Assembly (NCBI GenBank): GCA_964560355.1
Contig: CAZLLI010000002.1
Location: 3,622-67,621 of the forward strand
Length of the DNA stretch: 64,000 nucleotides
Origin: an uncultured bacterium
GTDB taxonomy: Bacteria; Krumholzibacteriota; Krumholzibacteriia; WVZY01; JAKEHA01
Reading direction: 5' to 3'
The notes below the pieces were generated by a model. It did no database searches. It was not told the DNA's origin and was given only the letters and a program-made list of their open reading frames with translations. This document shows positions 23,976-33,651 of the stretch, one piece after another; the stretch's first letter is position 1; each line of letters begins with the position of its first letter. The position numbers were made by a program, and so were the translations under genes.

Positions 23976-24293
23976 ATGCACTGGGTTTATTTGTTCTGCG
24001 CGGGCGTGATGGAGTGGGGTTGGCCCATCGGGCTCAAGTTCGCGTCGCAACCGCAGCACCGTCAGTGGGCCATTCCCATGGCGATCGTTTCTATTGTATT
24101 GAGCGGGTGGCTCTTGCTGCTTGCGCAGCGCGCGATTCCCATCGGCACCGCTTACGCGGTGTGGACCGGCATCGGCGCGGTGGGGACGTTCGTGCTGGGC
24201 ATCCTCTTGCTCGGCGAGCCCGCGCAGCTCGCGCGCTTCTTCTTCGTCGGACTGATTATCGTGGGGATCTTGGGACTGAAGTGGGTCAGCTAG
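23976..24293 (+). CDS. sugE: SMR family guanidinium/quaternary ammonium exporter (SugE/Gdx)
   Basis: 105 aa with 4 TM helices. GTAYAVWTGIGAVG matches E. coli SugE closely, and the conserved Glu sits in TM1 (MEWGWP). Confidence 0.9.
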   Translation: MHWVYLFCAGVMEWGWPIGLKFASQPQHRQWAIPMAIVSIVLSGWLLLLAQRAIPIGTAYAVWTGIGAVGTFVLGILLLGEPAQLARFFFVGLIIVGILGLKWVS

Positions 24294-26125
24294 GCCGCCG
24301 CCGGTCGCTTCGACGCAACCTTGCGCTCTTGGTCGTTCAGGATCTTCTTGCGCAGTCGAATCGATTTGGGTGTGACTTCCACCAATTCGTCGTCTTCGAT
24401 GAACTCGAGCGCGAACTCGAGCGTCATCTCGCGCGGGGGAGTGAGCTGGATGGCGTCGTCGGCGCCCGACGAGCGCATGTTGGTGAGCTTCTTCTCCTTG
24501 ATGGCGTTGACGACCAAGTCCGAGCCCTTGTTGTTGACGCCGATGATCATGCCTTCGTACACGGTGTCGCCGGGGTGGATCAGGATCTCGCCGCGTTCCT
24601 CCAGGCTCCATAGCGCGTACGCCACCGCGGTTCCGGGGTGGAGCGCGATCTGGACGCCGTTGTTGCGCTGCGGCATGTCGCCCTTGAACTCCTGGTACTC
24701 GTAGAAATTCTGATACATGACGCCGGTGCCGCGCGTCATGGTGAGAAACTCGCTGCGGAAGCCGATCAAGCCGCGCGTCGCGATCAAGAACTCCATGCGT
24801 ATGGTTCCAACGGCACTCGTCGACATGGACTTCATCTCGCCCTTGCGCTTACCCATGGCCTCGATGACGACACCCTCGAAGCCGGGGTCGACTTCGACCA
24901 CGACTTCCTCCACCGGCTCCATGACCTGCCCGTCGACTTCCTTCAAGATGACGCGCGGGCGCGAGACTTCCATCTCGTAGCCCTCGCGGCGCATGGTCTC
25001 GATCAAGATCGACAGGTGGAGCTCGCCGCGGCCCGACACCTTCAAACGCTCGCCACCGTCGGCGTCTTCCACGCGGATGCCGACGTTGATCATCGCTTCG
25101 TGCTCCAAGCGCTCCCTTATATGTCGCGAGGTCAAGAACCGCCCGCCGTCTTTGCCGGATAGCGGACTCGTGTTGTGCGAGAAGAACATCGAGATGGTCG
25201 GTTCGTCGACCTTGATCAGCGGCAGCGCCTCGGGCCGTTCGGGCGACGCGAGCGTGTCGCCGACGTGGACGTCTTCGATGCCCGCGATGGAGACGATGTC
25301 GCCGGCCAGCGCCGACTGGACTTCGGAGCGCTTGAGACCGGTGTAGCGCAAGATACGCGTGACTTTCGCCCGTTCGGTCGCGTGGTCGCGCTTGATGAGG
25401 ACGACGGGATCCCCGAGCTTGACCGACCCGTGGTAGATGCGCCCGCTCCCGATGCGTCCCATGTACGAGTCGTAGTCGAGCATGGTGACGAGCATCTGGA
25501 ACGGGTGGTCGACTTCGGCAACGGGCGGCAGCACGCGGTGCACGATGGTCTCGAGCAGGGCCTTCATGTCGGTGGCCGGCTCGTCGAGGTCCATGGTGGC
25601 CCAGCCGTTCTTGCCCGACGCGTACACGATGGGGAAGTCGAGCTGCTCGTCGGTCGCGTTGAGCTCGCAGAACAGATCAAAAGTCAAGTCGGCGACTTCG
25701 TGCGGACGCGCGTGCGGGCGGTCGATCTTATTGATGACGACGATGGGCTTCAAGTGCAGCTCGAGCGACTTCTTCAGCACGAACTTGGTCTGCGGCATGG
25801 GGCCGTCGAAGGCGTCCACGAGCAAGAGCACGCCGTCGACCATGCGCAGGATGCGCTCGACTTCGCTCCCGAAGTCCGCGTGCCCGGGCGTGTCGACGAT
25901 ATTGATGGTCAGATCCTTGTAGCGGATCGACGCGTTCTTGGAGAAGATGGTGATGCCGCGCTCCTTCTCCAACGGGTTGGAGTCGAGGATCGTCACCTCG
26001 CCCTCTTTGAAGGCGTGCGCGCCCGTCTGCTTCAACAGCGCGTCGACCAGGGTGGTTTTGCCGTGGTCGACGTGGGCGATGATCGCGATATTGCGGACGT
26101 CTTTGCGTCGTTTCTGGTTGGGCAT
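24290..26125 (-). CDS. typA: Translational GTPase TypA/BipA
   Basis: AHVDHGKTT and DTPGH G-motifs, about 611 aa. The track ORF extends to 28084, but the true start is ATG at 26125 ([16 protein letters not shown]). Confidence 0.92.
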
Positions 26126-26245
26126 ACGATGATTGCGCTTTTTCGCGCGGGCGACGTAATATAGGCCAAACCCGAACCGGCTGCAACGACCGAAATCGCG
26201 GCCGCGAGGCCGCGCAATCGCGGCCGAAAGGAAGTCCGGCCCTCC

Positions 26246-27862
26246 ATGCAAGCCCGACACGTCGTCTCGAAATGGATCGTGCGCGCCCTTTGGGTGTGGT
26301 GCGCGCTGGCCGCGTCCGCGTCGGCCGCCGCCGAGGTCGCCGAACCCGCGGTGGTTCGCTTCCAGAACCGCGAGATCGTGCTCTTGCGCGCGACGCTGGG
26401 ACCGCTCACGCCGCAAGAGCGCGCCGACGCCGCCATGGCGCGGCTCGCCCAGGTCCACGGCAGCGAGTACCGCAGCGACGTCAGCGTCGTCCCGTACGGC
26501 GACTCGCGCGCGCTCATCCTGGGCACTCGCATCGTTGTCGGCATCGCGCCGGGCGACGTCGACGCGAGCGCGGGCGAGACCGTCGACACCATCGCGGAGC
26601 AGGCCGCGGCGAACCTGCGCGAAGCGCTGGCGTCGTGGGGCGAGCAGCGCCGGCCCGAGGTGGTCGTGCGCGGCGTCACCCATGTGCTCATCGCGAGCGT
26701 GCTCGCGCTCGTGCTCCTCGTGGTCGTGAATTGGCTGCGGCGCCGCGTCATGAGCTTGCTGCCGTCGCGCGCCGAGCGCGCGCTCGAGCGGCGCCACGTC
26801 ACCCTGTTCGGGCAAGACGTGCGGGGCATCACCGTCAAAGGGGTTCACTTCCTGATCGGCCTCACCGCGGGCATCGCCGCGCTCGCCGTGGGTTACATGT
26901 GGCTCACGTACAGCCTGCGGCAGTTCCCGCTCACGGAACCGTGGGGCGACGGGCTGGCGGGATTCCTCATCGGCATCGCCACGACCATCGCGCTCGGGAT
27001 CCTGCGCGGCATTCCCGACATGGTGATGGTGGTGCTGGTGCTGGTGGTGACGAAACTGTTCGCGCGCGGCGTCGCGACGCTGTTCGACGCGGTCGAGCAG
27101 GGGCACGTCAAGGTGCGCGGCGTCCACCCCGACACCGCCGACGCGACCCGCCGCATCGTCACCGCATTGGTGTGGGTATTCGGCGTCGCCGTCGCGTATC
27201 CGTTCATCCCCGGTTCCAGCAGCGAGGCGTTCAAGGGCATCAGCGTGCTGGTCGGCCTCATGATCTCGCTGGGGTCGTCGGGCGTCATTAACCAGGCCAT
27301 GAGCGGCATGGTGGTGGTGTTTTCGCGCGCGCTCAAGGCGGGCGAGTACGTGTGCATCGCCGAGTTCGAGGGCACCGTGACCGAAGTGGGCGCGCTGTCG
27401 ACCAAGCTGCGCACGCCGCGCAACGAGGAGATCAACATTCCCAACGCGACGCTGGTGTCGAGCACGACCAAGAACTACTCGCGCCTCGCGCAAGAGCACG
27501 GGCTGGTGGTGTGGGCGACGGCCGGCATCGGTTACGACGCGCCGTGGCGCACCGTGCACAAGCTCTTGATCGGCGCCGCGCTCAAGACGCCGGGTCTGCG
27601 CCACGACCCGCCGCCGTTCGTGCGCCAGGGCGCGCTGTCCGCGTTTTGCGTCGACTACTATGTCAACGCCTTCATCGAGAACCCCGCGGATCGATTCAAG
27701 GTGTTGTCGGACTTGCACGCCAACGTGCAGGACGCGTTCAACGAAGCCGGCCTCCAGATCATGACGCCGGCCTTCGAGAGTCAGCCGTCGGAACCGGTTT
27801 TGGTGCCGAAGTCGAAGTGGAACCTGGGCGATGCGCCCACACCGCAGAGCAAGGCACCATAG
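26246..27862 (+). CDS. Mechanosensitive ion channel (MscS) family protein
   Basis: Signal peptide or first TM, then several TM helices followed by an MscS-like beta domain (GEYVCIAEFEGTVTEVGALSTKLRT). Confidence 0.75.
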   Translation: MQARHVVSKWIVRALWVWCALAASASAAAEVAEPAVVRFQNREIVLLRATLGPLTPQERADAAMARLAQVHGSEYRSDVSVVPYGDSRALILGTRIVVGIAPGDVDASAGETVDTIAEQAAANLREALASWGEQRRPEVVVRGVTHVLIASVLALVLLVVVNWLRRRVMSLLPSRAERALERRHVTLFGQDVRGITVKGVHFLIGLTAGIAALAVGYMWLTYSLRQFPLTEPWGDGLAGFLIGIATTIALGILRGIPDMVMVVLVLVVTKLFARGVATLFDAVEQGHVKVRGVHPDTADATRRIVTALVWVFGVAVAYPFIPGSSSEAFKGISVLVGLMISLGSSGVINQAMSGMVVVFSRALKAGEYVCIAEFEGTVTEVGALSTKLRTPRNEEINIPNATLVSSTTKNYSRLAQEHGLVVWATAGIGYDAPWRTVHKLLIGAALKTPGLRHDPPPFVRQGALSAFCVDYYVNAFIENPADRFKVLSDLHANVQDAFNEAGLQIMTPAFESQPSEPVLVPKSKWNLGDAPTPQSKAP

Positions 27863-27875
27863 AATGGAGGAGCGA

Positions 27876-28493
27876 ATGAAGAGGGCAAGCAAAGTCGTGG
27901 TCGGTATCGTCGCCGCGGCGGCGGTGGGGGCGTGCGGGAACACGCAGGTGCTCAATTCGTGGACCGATTCACAGATGACGCCCGCGCCGGCCAAGCGCAT
28001 CGTGGTGGTGGGGCTCTCCGGCGTCGAAACCACGCGCCGCTTGTTCGAAGACACCTTCAGCCAAGAGCTCAAGAACCGCGGCAACGACGCGGTGCCGGGT
28101 TACACGGTGCTCCCGAAAGGTCTCGAAGCGAATCCGGACTCGGCGCTCGCCGCCATTCGCAAGGCCGGCTTCGACGCGGCGCTGACCGCGCGCTCGATGG
28201 GCGTTCGCACCGAGGAAACGGAGACGGTGGGAACCGCGTACTACATTCCCGACTCCGGCTACTCGACCTGGGGCGGCTACTACGGCGCCGTCTACGGCGA
28301 TATCACCGCCAACACCTACACGCAGCGCTCGGAGAAAGCCATGGTCGAGACCAACCTCTACCAAACGGCGAACGCCAAGCTGGTGTGGAGCGCGCGCTCG
28401 GAAACGACGAGTACCGGCAAGCTCACCGAGGGCATGCGCGACTACGCGCGCACGGTGGTGGGCGAGCTCGGAAAGAGCGGCTTCATCAAGTGA
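27876..28493 (+). CDS. DUF4136-like lipoprotein
   Basis: GGAGG RBS 6 nt upstream of the ATG. Signal peptide with lipobox (AVGAC). Confidence 0.7.
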
Positions 28494-28509
28494 GGCGGGC
28501 GCGGCGCAC

Positions 28510-30120
28510 ATGATCGGTTACCTGGCGCGGAAGGTCCGACGCCACCGCGCACGGCGAACGTTTCGCGAGTACGGCTTCGACGTAAAGCGCTTCGCGCTCG
28601 CGCGCGACGGCGACGTCGAGTACGCGCAGTGGCAGCACCCCTTCGAGAAACCGAAGACGATCGTGCAGGACGACGTCGACGGGCTGCGGCGCTTCATCCG
28701 CGCGGGCGACACCGCCATCGACGTGGGCGCGCACACCGGCGACACCACGGTGCCGATGGCGCTCGCGTGCGGCCCCGACGGCGTCGTGGTGGCGTTCGAG
28801 CCCAACCCGCACGTGTTCAAGGTGCTCGAGGAAAACGCGCGCCTCAACCCCGACAAGACTCACATCGTCGCGCTCAATTTCGCGGCCACCGAAGACGACG
28901 GCGACTTCCAGTTCCACTACTGGGACGCGTCGTTCGGAAACGGCGGCTACCTCTCGCGCCTTCGCAACCAGCGCCACGGCCACCGCTATCCGCTGCGCGT
29001 GAAGGGGCGCAACCTCGAGCGCTACCTGCGCACGAACTTCGCCGACCGCCTCGCGCGCCTCACGTTCCTCAAGACCGACTGCGAGGGCTACGACAAGGAT
29101 GTGCTGCGCTCGTTGCGCGGGGTGTTGCGGGAGTTCCGCCCCGTCGTCGTGTGCGAAGTGCACAAGAAGCTCGACCACGCCGAGCGTCATGAGCTCTTCG
29201 ACGTGCTGAAGGACGCCGGCTACGTCCTCCACACGTACCAAGGCGGCGCGCACCCGGTGGGCGACGCCCTCGCGCGCGACGACCTCGCGAAGTTTCCGCG
29301 CCTCGACGTGATCGCGTTCCCCGAGGAGAGGGGAGCCGGCGAGACCCGCGGGGACGCGGGACGCCAACCGCTCCCGTCGACCGCGTCCACGCCGTTCGTC
29401 GAGCGGCGCGCGACGCCGATCGGCCGCGCGCAGCGCGTGCTCAAGGTCGCGGGGTGGATCTTCGTGGCGTGGATCGTGCTCACGGTCGGGCCCGTGATCG
29501 CGCTGCGGTGGGTCGACCCGCCGACCTCGGCCTTCATGGTGCAGCGCCGCATCGAGGGGCTCGTGCACCCGTCGCACCGCGTCGCCATCCAGTACCACTG
29601 GGTCGACATGGACCGCGTGTCGAAGAACACGCGCCTCGCCATGATCGCGGCCGAAGACCAGCGCTTCACCGAACACGACGGCTTCGACTTCGACGCGATC
29701 GAGAAGGCGCGCGAGCACAACCGCCGGCGCGGGCGCTTGCGCGGCGCGAGCACCATCTCGCAGCAGGTGGCGAAGAACTTGTTCCTGTGGCCCGGTCGCA
29801 GCTGGTTTCGCAAGGGCGTCGAGGCGGGTTATACCATCCTCATCGAAGCGTTGTGGCCCAAGAAGCGCGTGCTCGAGGTGTACCTCAACATCGCGGAGTT
29901 CGGCGACGGCGTCTACGGCGTCGACGCGGCGTCGCGGCGCTTCTTCCACAAGTCGCCCGCGCGCCTGGGCCGGCATGAGAGCGCGCTGCTCGCGGCCGTG
30001 CTGCCCAACCCGCGCCGCTTCAAGGTCGACAAGCCGTCGAAGTACGTCGAGCGGCGCGCGTGGTGGATCGAGCGCCAGATGATTCGACTGGGCCCGGCCG
30101 CGCTGGAGCCGCTGTCGTGA
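28510..30120 (+). CDS. Fusion protein: FkbM-family methyltransferase (N-terminal about 270 aa) + monofunctional peptidoglycan glycosyltransferase MtgA (GT51, C-terminal about 250 aa)
   Basis: FkbM motifs [18 protein letters not shown] helix follows, then the MtgA hallmarks [30 protein letters not shown] and NIAEFG. One uninterrupted ORF. Confidence 0.8.
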
Positions 30121-30548
30121 CCACGACGCGCGCACTCGCCTACGGTTGGGCGTCTCCCACCACGGCGGTCGGCTTGGTGCTGGTGGCGGCGGCGCTGGCG
30201 ACGGGCGCGCGCGCGTCCGTGGTCGACGGCGTGGTGGAGGCGCACGGCGGATTGCTCGACGCGATGCTGCGTCGCTTCGTGCCGTTGCGCGGCGGGGCCA
30301 GCGCGATGACGCTCGGGCACGTCGTGGTGGGGCGCGATCCGGGATCGCTCGATCGCACGCGCGCGCACGAGCGCGCGCACGTGCGCCAGGCGGAACGGTG
30401 GGGTCCGTTCTTCCTCCCCGCGTACGTGGCGTCGTCGCTCGCGGTCGCGCTGCGCGGCGGGCACTACTATCGCGACAATCGTTTCGAGCGCGAGGCGGTC
30501 GCGGTGGCGTCGCAGGGTGCTCGGGCACCGGAAGGAGTCCGCTCGTGA
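30117..30548 (+). CDS. Hypothetical protein with HExxH (HERAH) motif, putative mini metallo-hydrolase
   Basis: GTG start overlapping the upstream TGA. 143 aa with a hydrophobic N-terminus. In frame with track ORF 30060-30548. Confidence 0.5.
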
Positions 30549-30889
30549 AGGTCACGCTGGTCACCGTTCTCCTGCTCACCGCGTCGAACGTCTTCATGAC
30601 CTTCGCGTGGTACGGACACTTGAAGCACATGCACGCGAAGCCGTGGTTCGTAGCGGCGCTGGTGAGCTGGGGAATCGCGTTCTTCGAGTACATGATCCAG
30701 GTTCCGGCCAACCGCATCGGGTTCCGGGTGATGGATCTCGCGCAGCTCAAGATTCTGCAGGAAGTGGTGACGCTCTCCGTGTTCATCCCGTTCGCGGTGT
30801 TCTACATGCGGGAGCGCCCGCGCCTCGACTATTTGTGGGCGGCGATGTGCCTCTTGGGAGCCGTCTACTTCATGTTCCGGCGCCCCTAG
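30545..30889 (+). CDS. DMT-superfamily small membrane protein (DUF486-like)
   Basis: GTG start overlapping the upstream stop. 114 aa with 4 TM helices and a YGHLKH motif. Confidence 0.6.
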   Translation: MKVTLVTVLLLTASNVFMTFAWYGHLKHMHAKPWFVAALVSWGIAFFEYMIQVPANRIGFRVMDLAQLKILQEVVTLSVFIPFAVFYMRERPRLDYLWAAMCLLGAVYFMFRRP

Positions 30890-31035
30890 GGCCTCTCGAT
30901 TTTGCTTTGACCGCGGCGTCGAACTGGCCTACGATACGTGGGTTACAGGACCGATGGGGGACGGTCCGTGGGCCATCACGCACCCTTCTCGCGCGCCCGG
31001 CGCCTGGCCGGTCCGCCTCGCCGCAAGCGGCCACC

Positions 31036-33651
31036 ATGGTTCGGTTTCTCCCCAGCCTTCGTGTTGTGGCGTTGATCGCCTTCGTCGCGGCGACCGCGCC
31101 GGTCGCGCGCGCCGGCGTCGACCCCGACTCGCTGTACCTCGCGCGCCATCCCACCCTCTTCTTCGGCCCCGGCGACGTGCCCGCGCTGCGCGCGCGCGTC
31201 GAAGCCCCCGGCGCCCCCGCCGACGCCTTCGCCTTCATCCGCGACGCCGTCCACGACACCTATCCGGCGGTGCCGATCGATTCGCTGATCGACAACGACT
31301 TCGCGCAGGAGCCGATCATGAATCTCGGGCTGGTCGGTTTCTTGAGCGACCCCGTCGACGACGACGCGCTCGCGCTCGGGCGCGCGCTCACCCTCCACAT
31401 CGTGCGCACCTGGGACGTCGACACCGACGCCTTCGGGTCGTCGCTGCGCCTGCGCCAGATGGCGATCGGGTACGACCTCTACTTCGCGGGTGCGACACCG
31501 CTCGAGCGCGCCGAGGTGCGCGCCGAAGTCGCGAGCTACATTTCGTACATCGTTTCCAGCATGGCGTACGACATCTGGCTGCACCGCCCGTACGCGAGCA
31601 ACAAGAGCGCGATGATCGCCGCCGCGCTGGGCCTGGCCGCAATCTCGTTCCGCGACGAGATCGCCCCCACGCTGACCGCGGCCGCGTTCGCGCGCTGCAC
31701 GGCGCTCTACGACGTGTGGCGCTCAACCTACATCGCGGACGACGGGTGCTATCGCGAAGGCGCGCTGTACGGCGCGTGGAGCTTCCGCAACCTGATTTAC
31801 TACTTCCAGGCGCGCACGCGCTTCGACGGGACCTCGTTCTCCAACGACTGGGCGGTGCGCGAGTTCGAGCGTTGGTACGCGTACGAGCTCGACCCGCGCG
31901 GCGGCGCGCGCTTGAACAACATCCAGGACCTGACCGACTACTACCTGCCGCTCGCGCGCCACACCACGTACTTGGAGTGGGCGATGTCGGAGTGGGGAAG
32001 CGGACTCGCGCGCTATATCTGGGACCGCGCGTCGGGGCCGCTCGGCGTCGACCTAGGCGACGAGAACGACAAGGCGGCGACGGTGCTGTGGCATGAGGAC
32101 GTGCCGTCGATCAACCCGGGGACAATCCTCCCCGAGAGCGCGCTGTGGAAGGGACGCGGGCTGTATTACTACCGCTCGGGCTGGGCGGACGGAGCCTCGT
32201 CGGACGACATCTCGCTCAGCTTCTACTCGGGCGAATTTCGCGGCGGCCACGCCCAGGAGGACCAGAATCAATTCACGCTGACCGCCTTCGGCGAGAAGCT
32301 CGTGATCGACCACGGCGCCGGCGGCACGGCGCGCCAGAGCGAAGCGCACAACATCGTGCGCATCGACCTCGCGGGACAGTTCAACGCGGGCGCGTCGATC
32401 GGCACCGACGGCCGCATCGCGCAGTCGATGCTGACCGGCTTCGCGGACTATCTGTGCGGCGACGCCACCGCCGCGTACACCACGCACAGCCCCTACAACA
32501 ACCCCGGCGTGCCCTACCCGGCGACGGATTGGTCGTGGGGTTACGGCGGCGCGAATCCGGTCGAGCGCGCGCTGCGGCGCATGGTGGTCGTGCACGGCGC
32601 GGGCTTTCCGACCTATTTCATCGTGCAGGACGACATTCTCAAGGACGGTGCCGTGCACCGCTACGACTGGTGCGCGCACTTCCCGGATTCGTCGACCATC
32701 GATGCGTCGGCGCCCAAGGGCCCCATCGCGGTCGCCGTGGGCGGGGCGCGCCTCGATTTGCACACGCTGTTTCCGCCCAAGCCAGCGCTTGCGGGCGTGA
32801 TCCGGACCACGTTCGATAACCAGGCCGAGGATCCCGACTCGAGGCTTTTGATGCTGACGACCTTCGCGATCAATCCGAAGTTCGCGCTGCTGCTAATCCC
32901 GCGGCGCGCGGGCGACGCCGCTACGGTGGTGCAATCGTCGACCTTCCCGGCCGGCACCATGAGCGTGGTGCGCTCGCCGTCGGGCGCGCTCGACGTGGTG
33001 TGGGTGCGCGGCAATCACGTCGGGCCGGTGGCGCCGCCGCCCGCCGGCGACGACGGCGAGGGGTGCGGCCCGGTCTCGATCGACGCCGAGCTCGCGGTGG
33101 TGCGAATGGGGGCGGCGGGCGTCGAGCGCTATCTCGCGGTCGACGCGCGCTCCATCGCGTGCGCGTCCGGCGACGTCGTCACGATTCTCGACGGCACCGC
33201 GACCTTCGCCTTCGACGGTACGCGCGTCACCATCGACCGGCCCGACGCCGAGTTTCGCATCCTCGCCGACGGTGTGAGCGAAGTCGTGTGCGACGGCGCG
33301 GTGGTCCCGACCGGCCTCGACGGCCGCTACTTGGTGCGCGTCTCCGCCACCGCGGTGACGACACCCGCGCGCGGCGACGGGCTGGGGCTGCGCGCGTATC
33401 CGAATCCGTTCAACCCGTCGGTGCGCATCCGCTTCGCCACCGCGGCGCGCGCGCACGTCGATGCGCGCGTCTACGACGCCGCCGGTCGCTTCGTGGCGAC
33501 GCTCGCGTCGGGCGCGATGGCGGGCGGTGAACACTCGATGGAGTGGAACGGACGCGACCACCGCGGCCGTGAAGCGGCGAGCGGCGTGTATTTCCTGCGC
33601 GTGCGCGCGGGGTCGGCGAGCGAATCGTTGAAACTGGTGCTGGTGCGTTAA
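31036..33651 (+). CDS. Heparinase II/III-like (alginate lyase / polysaccharide lyase) protein with C-terminal T9SS-type sorting domain
   Basis: Signal peptide, alpha/alpha toroid N-terminal region and a heparinase II/III-like middle region. The C-terminus AYPNPFNPSVRIRF..VYDAAGRFV..GVYFLRVRAG is a canonical FlgD-Ig/Por-secretion tail. Confidence 0.8.
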   Translation: MVRFLPSLRVVALIAFVAATAPVARAGVDPDSLYLARHPTLFFGPGDVPALRARVEAPGAPADAFAFIRDAVHDTYPAVPIDSLIDNDFAQEPIMNLGLVGFLSDPVDDDALALGRALTLHIVRTWDVDTDAFGSSLRLRQMAIGYDLYFAGATPLERAEVRAEVASYISYIVSSMAYDIWLHRPYASNKSAMIAAALGLAAISFRDEIAPTLTAAAFARCTALYDVWRSTYIADDGCYREGALYGAWSFRNLIYYFQARTRFDGTSFSNDWAVREFERWYAYELDPRGGARLNNIQDLTDYYLPLARHTTYLEWAMSEWGSGLARYIWDRASGPLGVDLGDENDKAATVLWHEDVPSINPGTILPESALWKGRGLYYYRSGWADGASSDDISLSFYSGEFRGGHAQEDQNQFTLTAFGEKLVIDHGAGGTARQSEAHNIVRIDLAGQFNAGASIGTDGRIAQSMLTGFADYLCGDATAAYTTHSPYNNPGVPYPATDWSWGYGGANPVERALRRMVVVHGAGFPTYFIVQDDILKDGAVHRYDWCAHFPDSSTIDASAPKGPIAVAVGGARLDLHTLFPPKPALAGVIRTTFDNQAEDPDSRLLMLTTFAINPKFALLLIPRRAGDAATVVQSSTFPAGTMSVVRSPSGALDVVWVRGNHVGPVAPPPAGDDGEGCGPVSIDAELAVVRMGAAGVERYLAVDARSIACASGDVVTILDGTATFAFDGTRVTIDRPDAEFRILADGVSEVVCDGAVVPTGLDGRYLVRVSATAVTTPARGDGLGLRAYPNPFNPSVRIRFATAARAHVDARVYDAAGRFVATLASGAMAGGEHSMEWNGRDHRGREAASGVYFLRVRAGSASESLKLVLVR

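What the first reader, a model, noticed from the sequence alone, without database searches (positions are those of the whole stretch)
28510..30120. Single-ORF fusion of an FkbM-type methyltransferase with the peptidoglycan glycosyltransferase MtgA
MtgA is normally a stand-alone membrane enzyme of about 240 aa. Here its complete sequence, including its own TM anchor and PPTSAF entry motif, continues without a stop or obvious internal start from a 270-aa FkbM-family O-methyltransferase domain. A methyltransferase physically coupled to glycan-strand polymerisation would suggest methylated peptidoglycan or a related glycan. I know of no precedent.
Basis: seen in the sequence. Interest (0 to 1): 0.62.

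Follow-up and report, generated by a model that had tools for sequence, protein, structure and literature searches.

The report
Methyltransferase fused to cell-wall polymerase MtgA
In one branch of the uncultured Krumholzibacteria, two overlapping neighbour genes, an FkbM-type methyltransferase and the cell-wall polymerase MtgA, have merged into one real membrane-spanning protein, which hints at an undescribed methylation step linked to cell-wall synthesis.

Summary
The 536-aa ORF at 28510-30120 (+) is real and is not an assembly artefact. It has an FkbM methyltransferase domain (residues 1-271), a disordered linker (about 272-301), one transmembrane helix (about 313-333) and a complete MtgA-type GT51 domain (336-536).

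At least 16 independent database clusters, four species-level genomes and two metagenome contigs carry the same fusion, always in frame despite linker indels. Both halves are under equally strong purifying selection (dN/dS 0.13 and 0.11), and all catalytic motifs are intact.

The fusion is derived. More distant Krumholzibacteria (63-71 % identity) encode FkbM and MtgA as separate genes with overlapping stop and start codons at the same locus (10 of 10 loci examined). One relative has MtgA alone. FkbM relatives at 59 % identity or less are never next to MtgA (0 of 63). The fused proteins form a single nested clade (299 of 300 bootstraps).

Predicted topology puts the methyltransferase in the cytoplasm and GT51 in the periplasm, so it cannot methylate the growing glycan strand directly. 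A membrane-bound precursor such as lipid II is the most plausible substrate, but nothing here shows that. No literature describes this pairing.

The parts
28510..30120 (+). Fused fkbM-mtgA gene, 536 aa plus the TGA stop
   Evidence: ORF listing and sequence. Both domains score above the curated cutoffs. Full-length homologues at 75-82 % identity.
28510..29322 (+). Cytoplasmic FkbM-family SAM methyltransferase domain (residues 1-271). It includes a basic N-terminal helix (residues 2-14, 8 K/R in the first 20 residues), SAM motif [10 protein letters not shown] (69-77) and the post-I acidic residue in VVAFE (93-97).
   Evidence: Pfam and NCBIfam hits. AF2 pLDDT mostly above 90, with an alternating strand-helix pattern typical of a Rossmann-type fold. 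Foldseek hits to class I methyltransferases, including the FkbM structure 2py6. Motif scan. dN/dS 0.13.
29323..29412 (+). Low-complexity interdomain linker (residues 272-301), variable in length and sequence
   Evidence: AF2 pLDDT below 50 for residues 279-301. Variable but always in frame in homologues. GC3 0.91 in frame. dN/dS about 0.5.
29413..29514 (+). Basic juxtamembrane segment and the single transmembrane helix (residues 302-335; hydrophobic core about 313-333)
   Evidence: This is the only Kyte-Doolittle peak in the protein. There are 5 K/R in the 15 residues before it and 2 in the 15 after. AF2 predicts a continuous helix at 303-331.
29515..30117 (+). Periplasmic GT51 peptidoglycan glycosyltransferase domain (residues 336-536), starting at DPPTSAF. 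Motifs: [10 protein letters not shown] (382), GASTISQQ (412), RKGVE (434), [10 protein letters not shown] (451).
   Evidence: TIGR02070 at 284 bits. Foldseek hits to 2oqo and 3nb6 (target TM-score 0.83) and to S. aureus MtgA 3vmq and 3hzs. Motif scan. E382 and E438 are invariant in alignment A1. dN/dS 0.11.
30117..30548 (+). Downstream gene whose start overlaps the fusion's stop (GTGA). It encodes a 143-aa membrane protein with an invariant H84-E85-x-x-H88 motif and belongs to an uncharacterised family.
   Evidence: Conserved start/stop overlap in six loci. About 2,263 homologues, none with a Pfam domain. Invariant residues. It follows MtgA in every Krumholzibacteria locus that extends far enough.
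30545..30889 (+). DMT_6 (DUF486) small four-helix membrane protein of 114 aa. Its GTG start overlaps the preceding TGA stop.
   Evidence: PF04342 at E 2.3e-46. Overlap context. Present in L001, L018 and L021 but absent from L019 and L023.
27831..28493 (+). Upstream conserved hypothetical protein, probably a lipoprotein and weakly DUF4136-like. The likely true start is the ATG at 27876, which gives 205 aa as in relatives.
   Evidence: ORF listing. A 203-205-aa orthologue lies directly upstream of FkbM or the fusion in L001, L021 and L023. Sub-threshold DUF4136 hits in both the window and L023.

Best explanation
SHOWN. The ORF is a genuine, lineage-specific gene fusion in one sub-clade of Candidatus Krumholzibacteria (labelled Latescibacterota in some records). 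The ancestral arrangement, still present in more distant members of the lineage, is an operon in which a 275-283-aa FkbM-family methyltransferase gene and a 245-249-aa mtgA gene overlap at their stop and start codons. In the window's sub-clade the stop was lost and the frames were joined, and the former C- and N-terminal tails became a disordered linker of about 30 aa. Both halves keep their catalytic motifs and are under equal purifying selection.

PREDICTED FROM SEQUENCE. The product is a bitopic membrane protein. A SAM-dependent methyltransferase domain sits on the cytoplasmic face, followed by one transmembrane helix and then the GT51 lipid II polymerase domain in the periplasm.

INFERRED. 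A persistent overlapping gene pair followed by fusion is a Rosetta-stone signal that the two enzymes act together, probably as a complex in the split species (about 0.75). The methyltransferase is confined to the cytoplasm, where SAM is available, and is tethered to the inner leaflet next to MtgA's lipid-binding transmembrane helix. Its most plausible substrate is therefore a membrane-bound peptidoglycan precursor, lipid II or lipid I, before flipping, so that MtgA then polymerises methylated units. This substrate assignment carries only about 0.3. The target could be a sugar hydroxyl. For example, 4-O-methyl-GlcNAc could act only as a chain initiator and would cap the non-reducing end. It could equally be a stem-peptide carboxylate.
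For: Fusion real and recurrent: 16 full-length clusters at 75-82 % identity and 100 % coverage from NCBI, JGI and Logan; four GTDB species genomes; two further JGI contigs; all in frame with six different spacer lengths; GC3 periodicity runs through the linker.

Ancestral split state: L019 has FkbM 283 aa and MtgA 249 aa with a GTGA overlap; L021/L022 and L023/L024 overlap by 4 and 8 nt; seven of seven metagenome loci at 63-70 % identity are split; at least 60 clusters of 273-283-aa stand-alone FkbM exist in this lineage.

Direction of change: the fused clade is monophyletic in 299 of 300 bootstraps and nested within the split forms in 300 of 300. L018 has MtgA alone at the same locus. None of 63 FkbM relatives at 59 % identity or less has a GT51 domain downstream.

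Both halves functional: dN/dS 0.13 and 0.11; motifs intact; HMM scores above curated cutoffs; AF2 pLDDT 90 with Foldseek hits to GT51 structures and class I methyltransferases.

Topology: a single hydrophobic segment, a 5 versus 2 K/R asymmetry across it, and a basic non-hydrophobic N-terminus.

Chemistry precedent: methylated stem peptides are reported for M. smegmatis lipid II and, putatively, for P. aeruginosa peptidoglycan, with the biological function stated to be unknown.
Against: No experiment or direct computation links the methyltransferase domain to any peptidoglycan precursor. The two active sites lie on opposite sides of the membrane, so the fusion cannot channel a substrate from one to the other. 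MurJ-type flipping would have to intervene.

The nearest FkbM relatives outside the lineage (44-57 % identity) are mostly orphan genes in unrelated contexts. Glycos_transf_2 is the commonest neighbour, at only 5 of 80 flanking ORFs. Two of the four contexts examined individually were polyprenol-linked glycan clusters rather than peptidoglycan loci. One Krumholzibacteria genome (L018) has the MtgA-HExxH operon with no FkbM, so MtgA does not need the methyltransferase.

AF2 pTM of 0.58 gives no confident interdomain packing. Overlapping neighbour genes can fuse by a single frameshift, and such a fusion can persist if it is merely harmless.
Confidence: 0.75

Rival explanations
1. The fusion is real but functionally incidental. 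Two overlapping operon genes were joined by a one-base frameshift, and the halves still work independently. The methyltransferase acts on something unrelated to peptidoglycan, such as another envelope glycan, a lipid or a small molecule. The pairing with mtgA reflects only co-expression or membrane targeting.
For: The active sites are on opposite membrane faces. Outgroup FkbM relatives have no consistent partner and never sit next to MtgA. Some are in O-antigen- or EPS-like clusters. L018 lacks FkbM yet keeps the MtgA-HExxH operon. The linker is disordered and evolves fast. MtgA is also found fused to other unrelated domains: FAD monooxygenase, alpha/beta-hydrolase, GT2 and CIA30.
Against: The FkbM-MtgA adjacency with overlapping stop and start is kept in 10 of 10 split loci examined, across 63-71 % identity. 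It then became a fusion that has persisted through diversification to about 75 % identity, with every linker indel in frame. Both domains are under equal constraint. That is stronger than simple co-expression would predict.
Confidence: 0.3
2. The single ORF still yields two proteins, either by internal translation initiation just upstream of the transmembrane helix or by proteolytic cleavage in the disordered linker, so the fusion exists only at the gene level.
For: An in-frame GTG lies at codon 310 (29437), three residues before the hydrophobic core. Some homologues have a Met at the neighbouring position (VMK in P0009, P0010 and P0016). The linker has pLDDT below 50 and would be accessible to proteases. 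In the split species MtgA starts about 20 residues before the transmembrane helix.
Against: No start codon is conserved at any linker or juxtamembrane position across the 16 homologues; the residue is V, F, T or L. There is no Shine-Dalgarno-like sequence in the 20 nt upstream of codon 310. All linker indels preserve the frame and coding-type GC3 persists through the linker. Neither would be required if the upstream ORF simply terminated functionally.
Confidence: 0.12
3. Sequencing or assembly artefact: a missing or extra base in this assembly merged two adjacent genes.
For: The nearest split relatives differ from a fused ORF by only a frameshift near the junction. Some long contigs in this lineage carry obvious broken genes: BipA is in three pieces in L019 and DMT_6 in two pieces in L018.
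Against: The same fusion occurs in at least 16 clusters and at least six independently assembled loci from different projects and assemblers, with different linker lengths. Fused and split states follow phylogeny cleanly.
Confidence: 0.02
4. One reading: the methyltransferase acts in the periplasm directly on the glycan strand while GT51 polymerises it.
For: Only the physical linkage of the two domains in one polypeptide.
Against: There is no signal peptide. The N-terminus is strongly basic, there is a single transmembrane helix, and the positive-inside asymmetry places residues 1-312 in the cytoplasm. From established knowledge, SAM is a cytoplasmic cofactor and all characterised GT51 enzymes are N-in, C-out.
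Confidence: 0.03

Closest known systems
MtgA, monofunctional peptidoglycan glycosyltransferase (GT51; TIGR02070; E. coli MtgA; S. aureus MtgA structures 3vmq and 3hzs)
   Same: The C-terminal 225 residues are a complete MtgA: an N-in transmembrane anchor, all GT51 motifs including both catalytic glutamates, no transpeptidase domain, and a matching predicted fold.
   Different: It is not a stand-alone protein. It carries a 300-residue cytoplasmic enzymatic extension. In the wider lineage its gene overlaps an fkbM gene upstream and an HExxH membrane protein gene downstream.
FkbM-family SAM-dependent methyltransferases (PF05050, TIGR01444; FkbM of FK506 biosynthesis; structure 2py6; members in O-antigen, EPS and flagellin-glycosylation loci)
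   Same: HMM membership, the SAM-binding motif and a class I methyltransferase fold. Some close relatives lie in polyprenol-linked glycan clusters. The literature places FkbM-type genes in glycan-modification islands.
   Different: It is covalently tethered to the membrane and to a peptidoglycan polymerase. No characterised FkbM member is known to act on peptidoglycan precursors. The substrate here is unknown.
Class A penicillin-binding proteins (bifunctional GT51 plus transpeptidase, e.g. PBP1b)
   Same: A GT51 domain fused to a second enzyme in one membrane-anchored polypeptide (structural hits 3vma and 5hlb).
   Different: In class A PBPs the partner domain is C-terminal, periplasmic and acts on the same polymer. 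Here the partner is N-terminal, cytoplasmic and a methyltransferase, and there is no transpeptidase domain.
WbdD-WbdA type coupling of a terminating methyltransferase to a glycan polymerase in O-antigen synthesis (from my own knowledge, not tested here)
   Same: A SAM methyltransferase physically associated with a polysaccharide polymerase at the inner membrane. Methylation of a terminal sugar there controls chain fate.
   Different: In that system both activities are cytoplasmic and act on the same Und-PP-linked chain. Here the polymerase works in the periplasm, so any cap would have to be put on the monomer before flipping. Homology to WbdD was not tested.
Cytoplasmic lipid II tailoring (MurT/GatD amidation; methylated lipid II peptides of Mycobacterium smegmatis, enzyme unassigned in the papers read)
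   Same: Modification of the membrane-bound precursor on the cytoplasmic face before flipping and polymerisation. Methylated stem peptides have been reported.
   Different: There is no sequence relationship to MurT/GatD. The reported methylations are on peptide carboxylates in unrelated organisms. No link to an FkbM enzyme or to MtgA has been shown.

Membership tests
MtgA / GT51 monofunctional transglycosylase (TIGR02070, PF00912) | Scores above the curated family cutoff | tested here: met
   TIGR02070 at 284.1 bits against a cutoff of 182.65, residues 317-527 covering profile positions 10-221 of 224. PF00912 at 161 bits against 27.
MtgA / GT51 monofunctional transglycosylase (TIGR02070, PF00912) | Conserved GT51 motifs, including the two catalytic glutamates (EDxxFxxHxG and RKxxE) | tested here: met
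   [10 protein letters not shown] at 382, GASTISQQ at 412, RKGVE at 434 and [10 protein letters not shown] at 451. E382 and E438 are invariant in 18 sequences.
MtgA / GT51 monofunctional transglycosylase (TIGR02070, PF00912) | Lysozyme-like GT51 fold | tested here: met
   Foldseek hits to 2oqo and 3nb6 (E about 4e-10, target TM-score 0.83) and to S. aureus MtgA 3vmq and 3hzs. pLDDT above 90 across the domain.
MtgA / GT51 monofunctional transglycosylase (TIGR02070, PF00912) | Single transmembrane anchor preceding the GT51 domain, with no transpeptidase domain | tested here: met
   One hydrophobic segment at 313-333. The protein ends at residue 536 straight after the GT51 domain. PBP-family models fall far below their cutoffs.
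MtgA / GT51 monofunctional transglycosylase (TIGR02070, PF00912) | Stand-alone protein of about 240 aa with only a short cytoplasmic tail | tested here: not met
   About 312 cytoplasmic residues, including an enzymatic domain, precede the transmembrane helix. This feature is met in the split relatives, where MtgA is 245-253 aa.
MtgA / GT51 monofunctional transglycosylase (TIGR02070, PF00912) | Polymerises lipid II into glycan strands | not testable with these tools
   Needs an in vitro lipid II polymerisation assay or a moenomycin-binding assay.
FkbM-family methyltransferase (PF05050, TIGR01444) | Scores above the curated family cutoff | tested here: met
   TIGR01444 at 93.1 bits against 37.7, covering the full profile (1-143 of 143). 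PF05050 at 63.4 bits against 22.7.
FkbM-family methyltransferase (PF05050, TIGR01444) | SAM-binding motif I and an acidic residue at the end of strand 2 | tested here: met
   AIDVGAHTG at 69-77 and VVAFE at 93-97. Both are conserved in all fused and split homologues.
FkbM-family methyltransferase (PF05050, TIGR01444) | Class I Rossmann-type methyltransferase fold | tested here: met
   AF2 secondary structure alternates strands and helices with high pLDDT. Foldseek hits to class I methyltransferases (8fzb, 2as0, 3e05) and to the FkbM structure 2py6 at E 2.5e-4. Sequence-only matches to the PDB are weak, E about 0.02.
FkbM-family methyltransferase (PF05050, TIGR01444) | SAM-dependent methyl transfer to a defined acceptor | not testable with these tools
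   Needs a biochemical assay. Context-based substrate inference was attempted and was inconclusive.
Class A PBP (bifunctional GT51-transpeptidase) | C-terminal penicillin-binding transpeptidase domain | tested here: not met
   No transpeptidase domain in Pfam. PBP1a, 1b and 1c models match only the GT51 part and fall far below their cutoffs, for example TIGR02074 at 137 bits against 508.75.

The most novel reading that the evidence does not exclude
The FkbM partner is a dedicated methyltransferase for a peptidoglycan precursor. It would methylate lipid II or lipid I at the cytoplasmic face, either on a sugar hydroxyl (for example a GlcNAc 4-O-methyl that can only initiate chains and so caps the non-reducing end) or on a stem-peptide carboxylate. 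The conserved operon (DUF4136-like lipoprotein, FkbM, MtgA, HExxH membrane protein, and DMT_6 in some genomes) would then be a self-contained accessory module that builds a chemically distinct, methylated peptidoglycan in Krumholzibacteria. That would be the first enzyme assigned to peptidoglycan methylation.
Probability: 0.25. Interest if true: 0.8.

Novelty: new variant of a known kind. Interest (0 to 1): 0.5.

Why it matters
Peptidoglycan synthesis is among the best-studied bacterial pathways and a major antibiotic target. Known tailoring reactions include O-acetylation, N-deacetylation, N-glycolylation and amidation. Methylated stem peptides have been seen by mass spectrometry in mycobacterial lipid II and, putatively, in Pseudomonas peptidoglycan. 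The papers read here give no responsible enzyme and state that the biological function is unknown.

A methyltransferase gene that overlaps the lipid II polymerase gene mtgA across an entire lineage, and is covalently fused to it in one sub-clade, is a concrete candidate for such an enzyme. It can be cloned and tested. The case also shows all three stages of a gene fusion at one syntenic locus: no partner, an overlapping gene pair, and the fused gene.

If the methyltransferase proves unrelated to the cell wall, the finding reduces to an ordinary lineage-specific domain fusion in an uncultured phylum.

Tried and rejected
(1) Exhaustive search of 1.84 billion cluster representatives for more distant FkbM-MtgA fusions. 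Only single-domain hits were returned. The one two-stretch hit, P0125, is a tandem MtgA-MtgA. Fusions could be hidden under single-domain cluster representatives, so this negative result is weak.

(2) The first word-indexed homology search did not list the 63-71 % identical split FkbM proteins. They were found only by using the downstream HExxH gene as a syntenic marker and a second search.

(3) I suspected that the split in L019 was a long-read indel artefact, because its BipA is fragmented. I rejected that after finding at least 60 clusters of 273-283-aa FkbM proteins and the same split in short-read JGI and Logan contigs.

(4) Substrate inference from gene neighbourhood. Two of four hand-checked outgroup contexts were glycan clusters, but a census of 80 flanking ORFs from 43 loci was heterogeneous, with GT2 in only 5. 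I therefore do not claim a glycan substrate.

(5) Contexts of the nearest stand-alone MtgA relatives outside the lineage (P0076, P0057) showed no shared synteny.

(6) Sequence search of the methyltransferase half against the PDB gave only generic SAM-motif hits at E about 0.02.

(7) HExxH partner protein: a confident AF2 model but no Foldseek PDB neighbour, best E 0.79, and only a sub-threshold eCIS_core Pfam hit. The afdb50 library was unavailable.

(8) The first tree attempt, using Biopython, timed out and was redone with numpy neighbour-joining. P0399 broke monophyly until it was recognised as a partial fused protein ending at a contig edge.

(9) Public sources give these proteins no names or accessions.

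(10) Seven literature searches found no description of the pairing.
Full report
**1. Observation**

The window has 67 % GC. It contains an ATG-to-TGA ORF at 28510-30120 (+) of 536 aa.

- Pfam places an FkbM-type Methyltransf_21 domain at residues 71-239 and a Transgly (GT51) domain at 361-524.
- NCBIfam's equivalog model for monofunctional peptidoglycan transglycosylase (TIGR02070) scores 284 bits against a cutoff of 183 over residues 317-527. The fkbM_fam model scores 93 bits against 38.
- The catalytic and cofactor motifs are all present: AIDVGAHTG and VVAFE in the methyltransferase; [23 protein letters not shown] and [10 protein letters not shown] in GT51.
- The window has no second copy of either half.

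**2. The open frame is not a GC artefact or an assembly error**

Long open frames come cheaply at this GC content. The antisense strand carries a meaningless 766-aa ORF over the same region. So I tested the junction in four ways.

- *Codon signal.* GC3 in the 35-codon linker is 0.91 in the ORF frame and 0.71-0.74 in the other two frames. The two domains have GC3 of 0.93-0.95.
- *Recurrence.* A search of about 5.8 billion proteins returned 16 full-length clusters at 75-82 % identity and 100 % coverage, all carrying both Pfam domains, from NCBI, JGI and Logan assemblies. Their alignment shows two well-conserved domains joined by a linker that varies in both length and sequence.
- *DNA level.* Six independently assembled loci have spacers of 174, 186, 192, 222, 225 and 231 nt between fixed anchors. 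All are in frame and none has a stop.
- *Further examples.* Two more fused examples came from a separate metagenome scan (L025 on a 417-kb contig, and L026).

The artefact explanation can be dismissed.

**3. Organism and locus**

The full-length fusions lie in MAGs labelled Candidatus Krumholzibacteriia or Latescibacterota, including one on a 2.06-Mb contig.

Gene order is conserved between the window and L001: BipA(-), MscS, a ~205-aa hypothetical protein, the fusion, a 143-153-aa protein, DMT_6 (DUF486), and a large FlgD_ig protein. The small downstream protein's start overlaps the fusion's stop (GTGA or ATGA). The DMT_6 start overlaps that protein's stop in turn.

**4. The fusion is derived from an overlapping two-gene pair**

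The small downstream protein belongs to a large unannotated family of about 2,263 members. I used it as a syntenic marker.

- In L018, on a 3.2-Mb contig, the same locus holds a 253-aa MtgA alone, with no FkbM.
- In L019, FkbM (283 aa) and MtgA (249 aa) are separate ORFs in different frames, with MtgA's GTG overlapping FkbM's TGA. They are 71 % and 66 % identical to the two halves of the window protein.
- L019's BipA is fragmented, so I checked whether the split could be an indel error. It is not. At least 60 clusters of 273-283-aa stand-alone FkbM proteins at 61-85 % identity exist in this lineage. Two further pairs of contigs, each pair comprising a JGI and a Logan assembly, show FkbM and MtgA overlapping by 4 or 8 nt.

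A scripted classification of 80 metagenome loci gave a clean pattern:

| MT identity to the window | Result |
|---|---|
| 75 % or more | 2 of 2 fused |
| 63-70 % | 7 of 7 split, each with a stop codon |
| 59 % or less | 0 of 63 with a GT51 domain downstream |

Eight further loci at 59 % identity or less were too short downstream to judge.

A neighbour-joining tree of the methyltransferase domains puts the fused proteins in one clade in 299 of 300 bootstraps. That clade nests inside the split Krumholzibacteria forms in 300 of 300. P0399 had to be removed first: it is a partial fused protein truncated at a contig end.

The history is therefore: MtgA alone, or with the HExxH partner; then acquisition of an upstream overlapping fkbM; then a single fusion event in the window's sub-clade. 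It identifies the ancestral state and does not expose an error.

**5. Both halves are functional**

Pairwise Nei-Gojobori analysis of the six fused loci gives these dN/dS values:

| Region | dN/dS |
|---|---|
| Methyltransferase domain | 0.13 |
| Linker | about 0.5 |
| Juxtamembrane and transmembrane segment | 0.38 |
| GT51 domain | 0.11 |

The AF2 model has mean pLDDT 90. Both domains are confidently folded, residues 279-301 are disordered (pLDDT below 50), and residues 303-331 form one continuous helix. Foldseek matches the C-terminal half to peptidoglycan glycosyltransferase structures (2oqo and 3nb6 at target TM-score 0.83; S. aureus MtgA 3vmq and 3hzs). It matches the N-terminal half to class I methyltransferases, including the FkbM structure 2py6.

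**6. Topology and what it allows**

The protein has one hydrophobic segment (about 313-333). Five K/R residues lie in the 15 residues before it and two in the 15 after. The N-terminus is strongly basic and not hydrophobic, with 8 K/R in the first 20 residues. All characterised GT51 enzymes are N-in, C-out (established knowledge).

So the methyltransferase is cytoplasmic, where SAM is available, and GT51 is periplasmic. The methyltransferase cannot touch the strand being polymerised. Any chemical link to peptidoglycan has to go through the membrane-bound monomer before it is flipped.

**7. Most likely mechanism**

*Shown:* a real fusion of two intact enzymes that derives from a conserved pair of overlapping genes.

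*Inferred from that pattern (about 0.75):* the two enzymes function together, probably as a complex in the split species.

*Inferred further (about 0.3):* the methyltransferase modifies lipid II or lipid I at the inner leaflet, next to MtgA's transmembrane helix, and MtgA then polymerises methylated units.

Two chemistries are conceivable.

- *O-methylation of a sugar hydroxyl.* GT51 enzymes use the GlcNAc 4-OH of incoming lipid II as the acceptor. A 4-O-methylated monomer could therefore act only as a chain initiator and would leave a capped non-reducing end. This is analogous in logic to methyl caps on O-antigens. That comparison rests on my own knowledge and was not tested.
- *Methyl esterification of a stem-peptide carboxylate.* There is mass-spectrometric precedent in M. 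smegmatis lipid II and, putatively, in P. aeruginosa peptidoglycan. The papers read state that the biological function is unknown.

**8. Why the substrate claim stays weak**

The closest FkbM relatives outside the lineage are 44-57 % identical and widely distributed, for example in Fluviicola, Armatimonadota and Planctomycetota. Two of the four contexts I examined individually were polyprenol-linked glycan clusters. One had GT4, GT2, Wzx, FdtA and DegT. The other had Bac_transf, a PMT_2 GT-C enzyme and two further FkbM genes. The other two were orphans.

A census of 80 flanking ORFs from 43 outgroup loci was heterogeneous. Glycos_transf_2 was the most frequent family, in only 5 ORFs. L018 shows that MtgA and its HExxH partner can exist without FkbM.

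The main rival, at about 0.3, is that the fusion is real but incidental, with the methyltransferase acting on something unrelated to peptidoglycan. A lesser rival, at about 0.12, is that two proteins are still produced by internal initiation or by cleavage in the linker. Against this, no start codon or Shine-Dalgarno sequence is conserved, and frame and codon bias are maintained through the linker.

**9. Comparison with what is known**

The C-terminal part passes every computational membership test for MtgA except being a stand-alone protein. The N-terminal part passes those for the FkbM family. The catalytic activities themselves cannot be tested here.

It is not a class A PBP, because it has no transpeptidase domain. 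MtgA fused to other domains does occur in the databases: FAD monooxygenase, alpha/beta-hydrolase, GT2, CIA30 and a tandem MtgA. Seven full-text searches found no description of an FkbM-MtgA operon or fusion. Public sources either leave the protein unnamed or call it simply a monofunctional transglycosylase.

**10. Verdict**

The finding is a new variant built from known parts. Its interest lies less in the fusion itself than in the lineage-wide coupling of a SAM methyltransferase to a peptidoglycan polymerase, of which the fusion is the strongest symptom. I score interest at 0.5. It would rise to about 0.8 if lipid II methylation were demonstrated, which I put at about 0.25.

Noticed in passing
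window 30117-30548 (+); orthologues at L001 9605-10060, L018 6001-6459, L019 6001-6423 and L023 6561-6986: An uncharacterised family of about 2,263 small membrane proteins (135-157 aa among the members listed) with an invariant H-E-x-x-H motif plus conserved W95, G96, Y118 and N121. Its start overlaps the stop of MtgA throughout Krumholzibacteria, whether or not FkbM is present. It also occurs alone, for example in a Tepidisphaeraceae contig (L020). It has no Pfam family above threshold (eCIS_core at E 0.03), a confident AF2 model (pLDDT 90) and no PDB structural neighbour. It may be a minimal membrane zinc metallopeptidase associated with MtgA.
   Followed up: partly
window 30545-30889 (+): A DMT_6 (DUF486) four-helix membrane protein whose GTG start overlaps the stop of the HExxH gene. 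It is present in the operon in the window, L001, L018 and L021 but absent from L019 and L023. Small proteins of the DMT superfamily include lipid-linked sugar flippases (my own knowledge), so a role in moving a modified precursor is conceivable but untested.
   Followed up: partly
window 27831-28493 (+); L021 4383-4997; L023 4385-4996: A conserved ~204-aa hypothetical protein lies immediately upstream of FkbM or the fusion in both fused and split loci. Its N-terminus resembles a lipoprotein signal (…[12 protein letters not shown]…), and it gives sub-threshold DUF4136 hits in two orthologues. The likely true start in the window is the ATG at 27876 rather than 27831.
   Followed up: partly
window 26246-27862 (+); L001 5691-7370: An MscS-type mechanosensitive channel gene sits between BipA and the lipoprotein gene in the two fused-clade loci whose upstream region was examined (window and L001). 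It is absent from that position in the split loci L021 and L023 and in L018, so it looks like a second rearrangement specific to the fused sub-clade.
   Followed up: no
window 28486-30786 (-) and 24290-28084 (-): Spurious long ORFs typical of high-GC DNA. A 766-aa antisense ORF covers the whole fusion gene. The mechanical ORF for BipA is 1,264 aa from a TTG start, whereas BipA is 611 aa in relatives, so about 650 residues are a false N-terminal extension running antisense through the MscS gene.
   Followed up: no
P0125, P0064, P0098, P0091, P0173, P0107 (database proteins, not in the window): Other unusual MtgA architectures exist: a tandem MtgA-MtgA (591 aa), FAD monooxygenase-MtgA (780 aa), alpha/beta-hydrolase-MtgA, MtgA-GT2, MtgA-CIA30 and DUF2934-MtgA. 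None was checked for recurrence or for gene-calling artefacts.
   Followed up: no
L019 2328-3405 and L018 6472-6812: In these long ENA and NCBI contigs BipA is split into three fragments (L019) and DMT_6 into two (L018). This suggests indel errors or pseudogenes, so gene splits in these assemblies should not be taken at face value without independent contigs.
   Followed up: partly
searches: Methodological point. The word-indexed homology search with the fused protein did not return the 63-71 % identical split FkbM proteins, and the reciprocal search with the L019 FkbM did not return the fused proteins. The 50 %-clustered representative library also hid the fusion cluster. The key relatives were found only through synteny.
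   Followed up: no
window 30517-33651 (+); L001 10532-13153; L018 6946-9588: A large conserved protein downstream of the operon carries FlgD_ig, with weaker Por_Secre_tail or Hepar_II_III_C matches in relatives. This suggests a secreted polysaccharide-lyase-like cargo of the type IX secretion system. The window's mechanical ORF of 1,044 aa probably starts too early.
   Followed up: no
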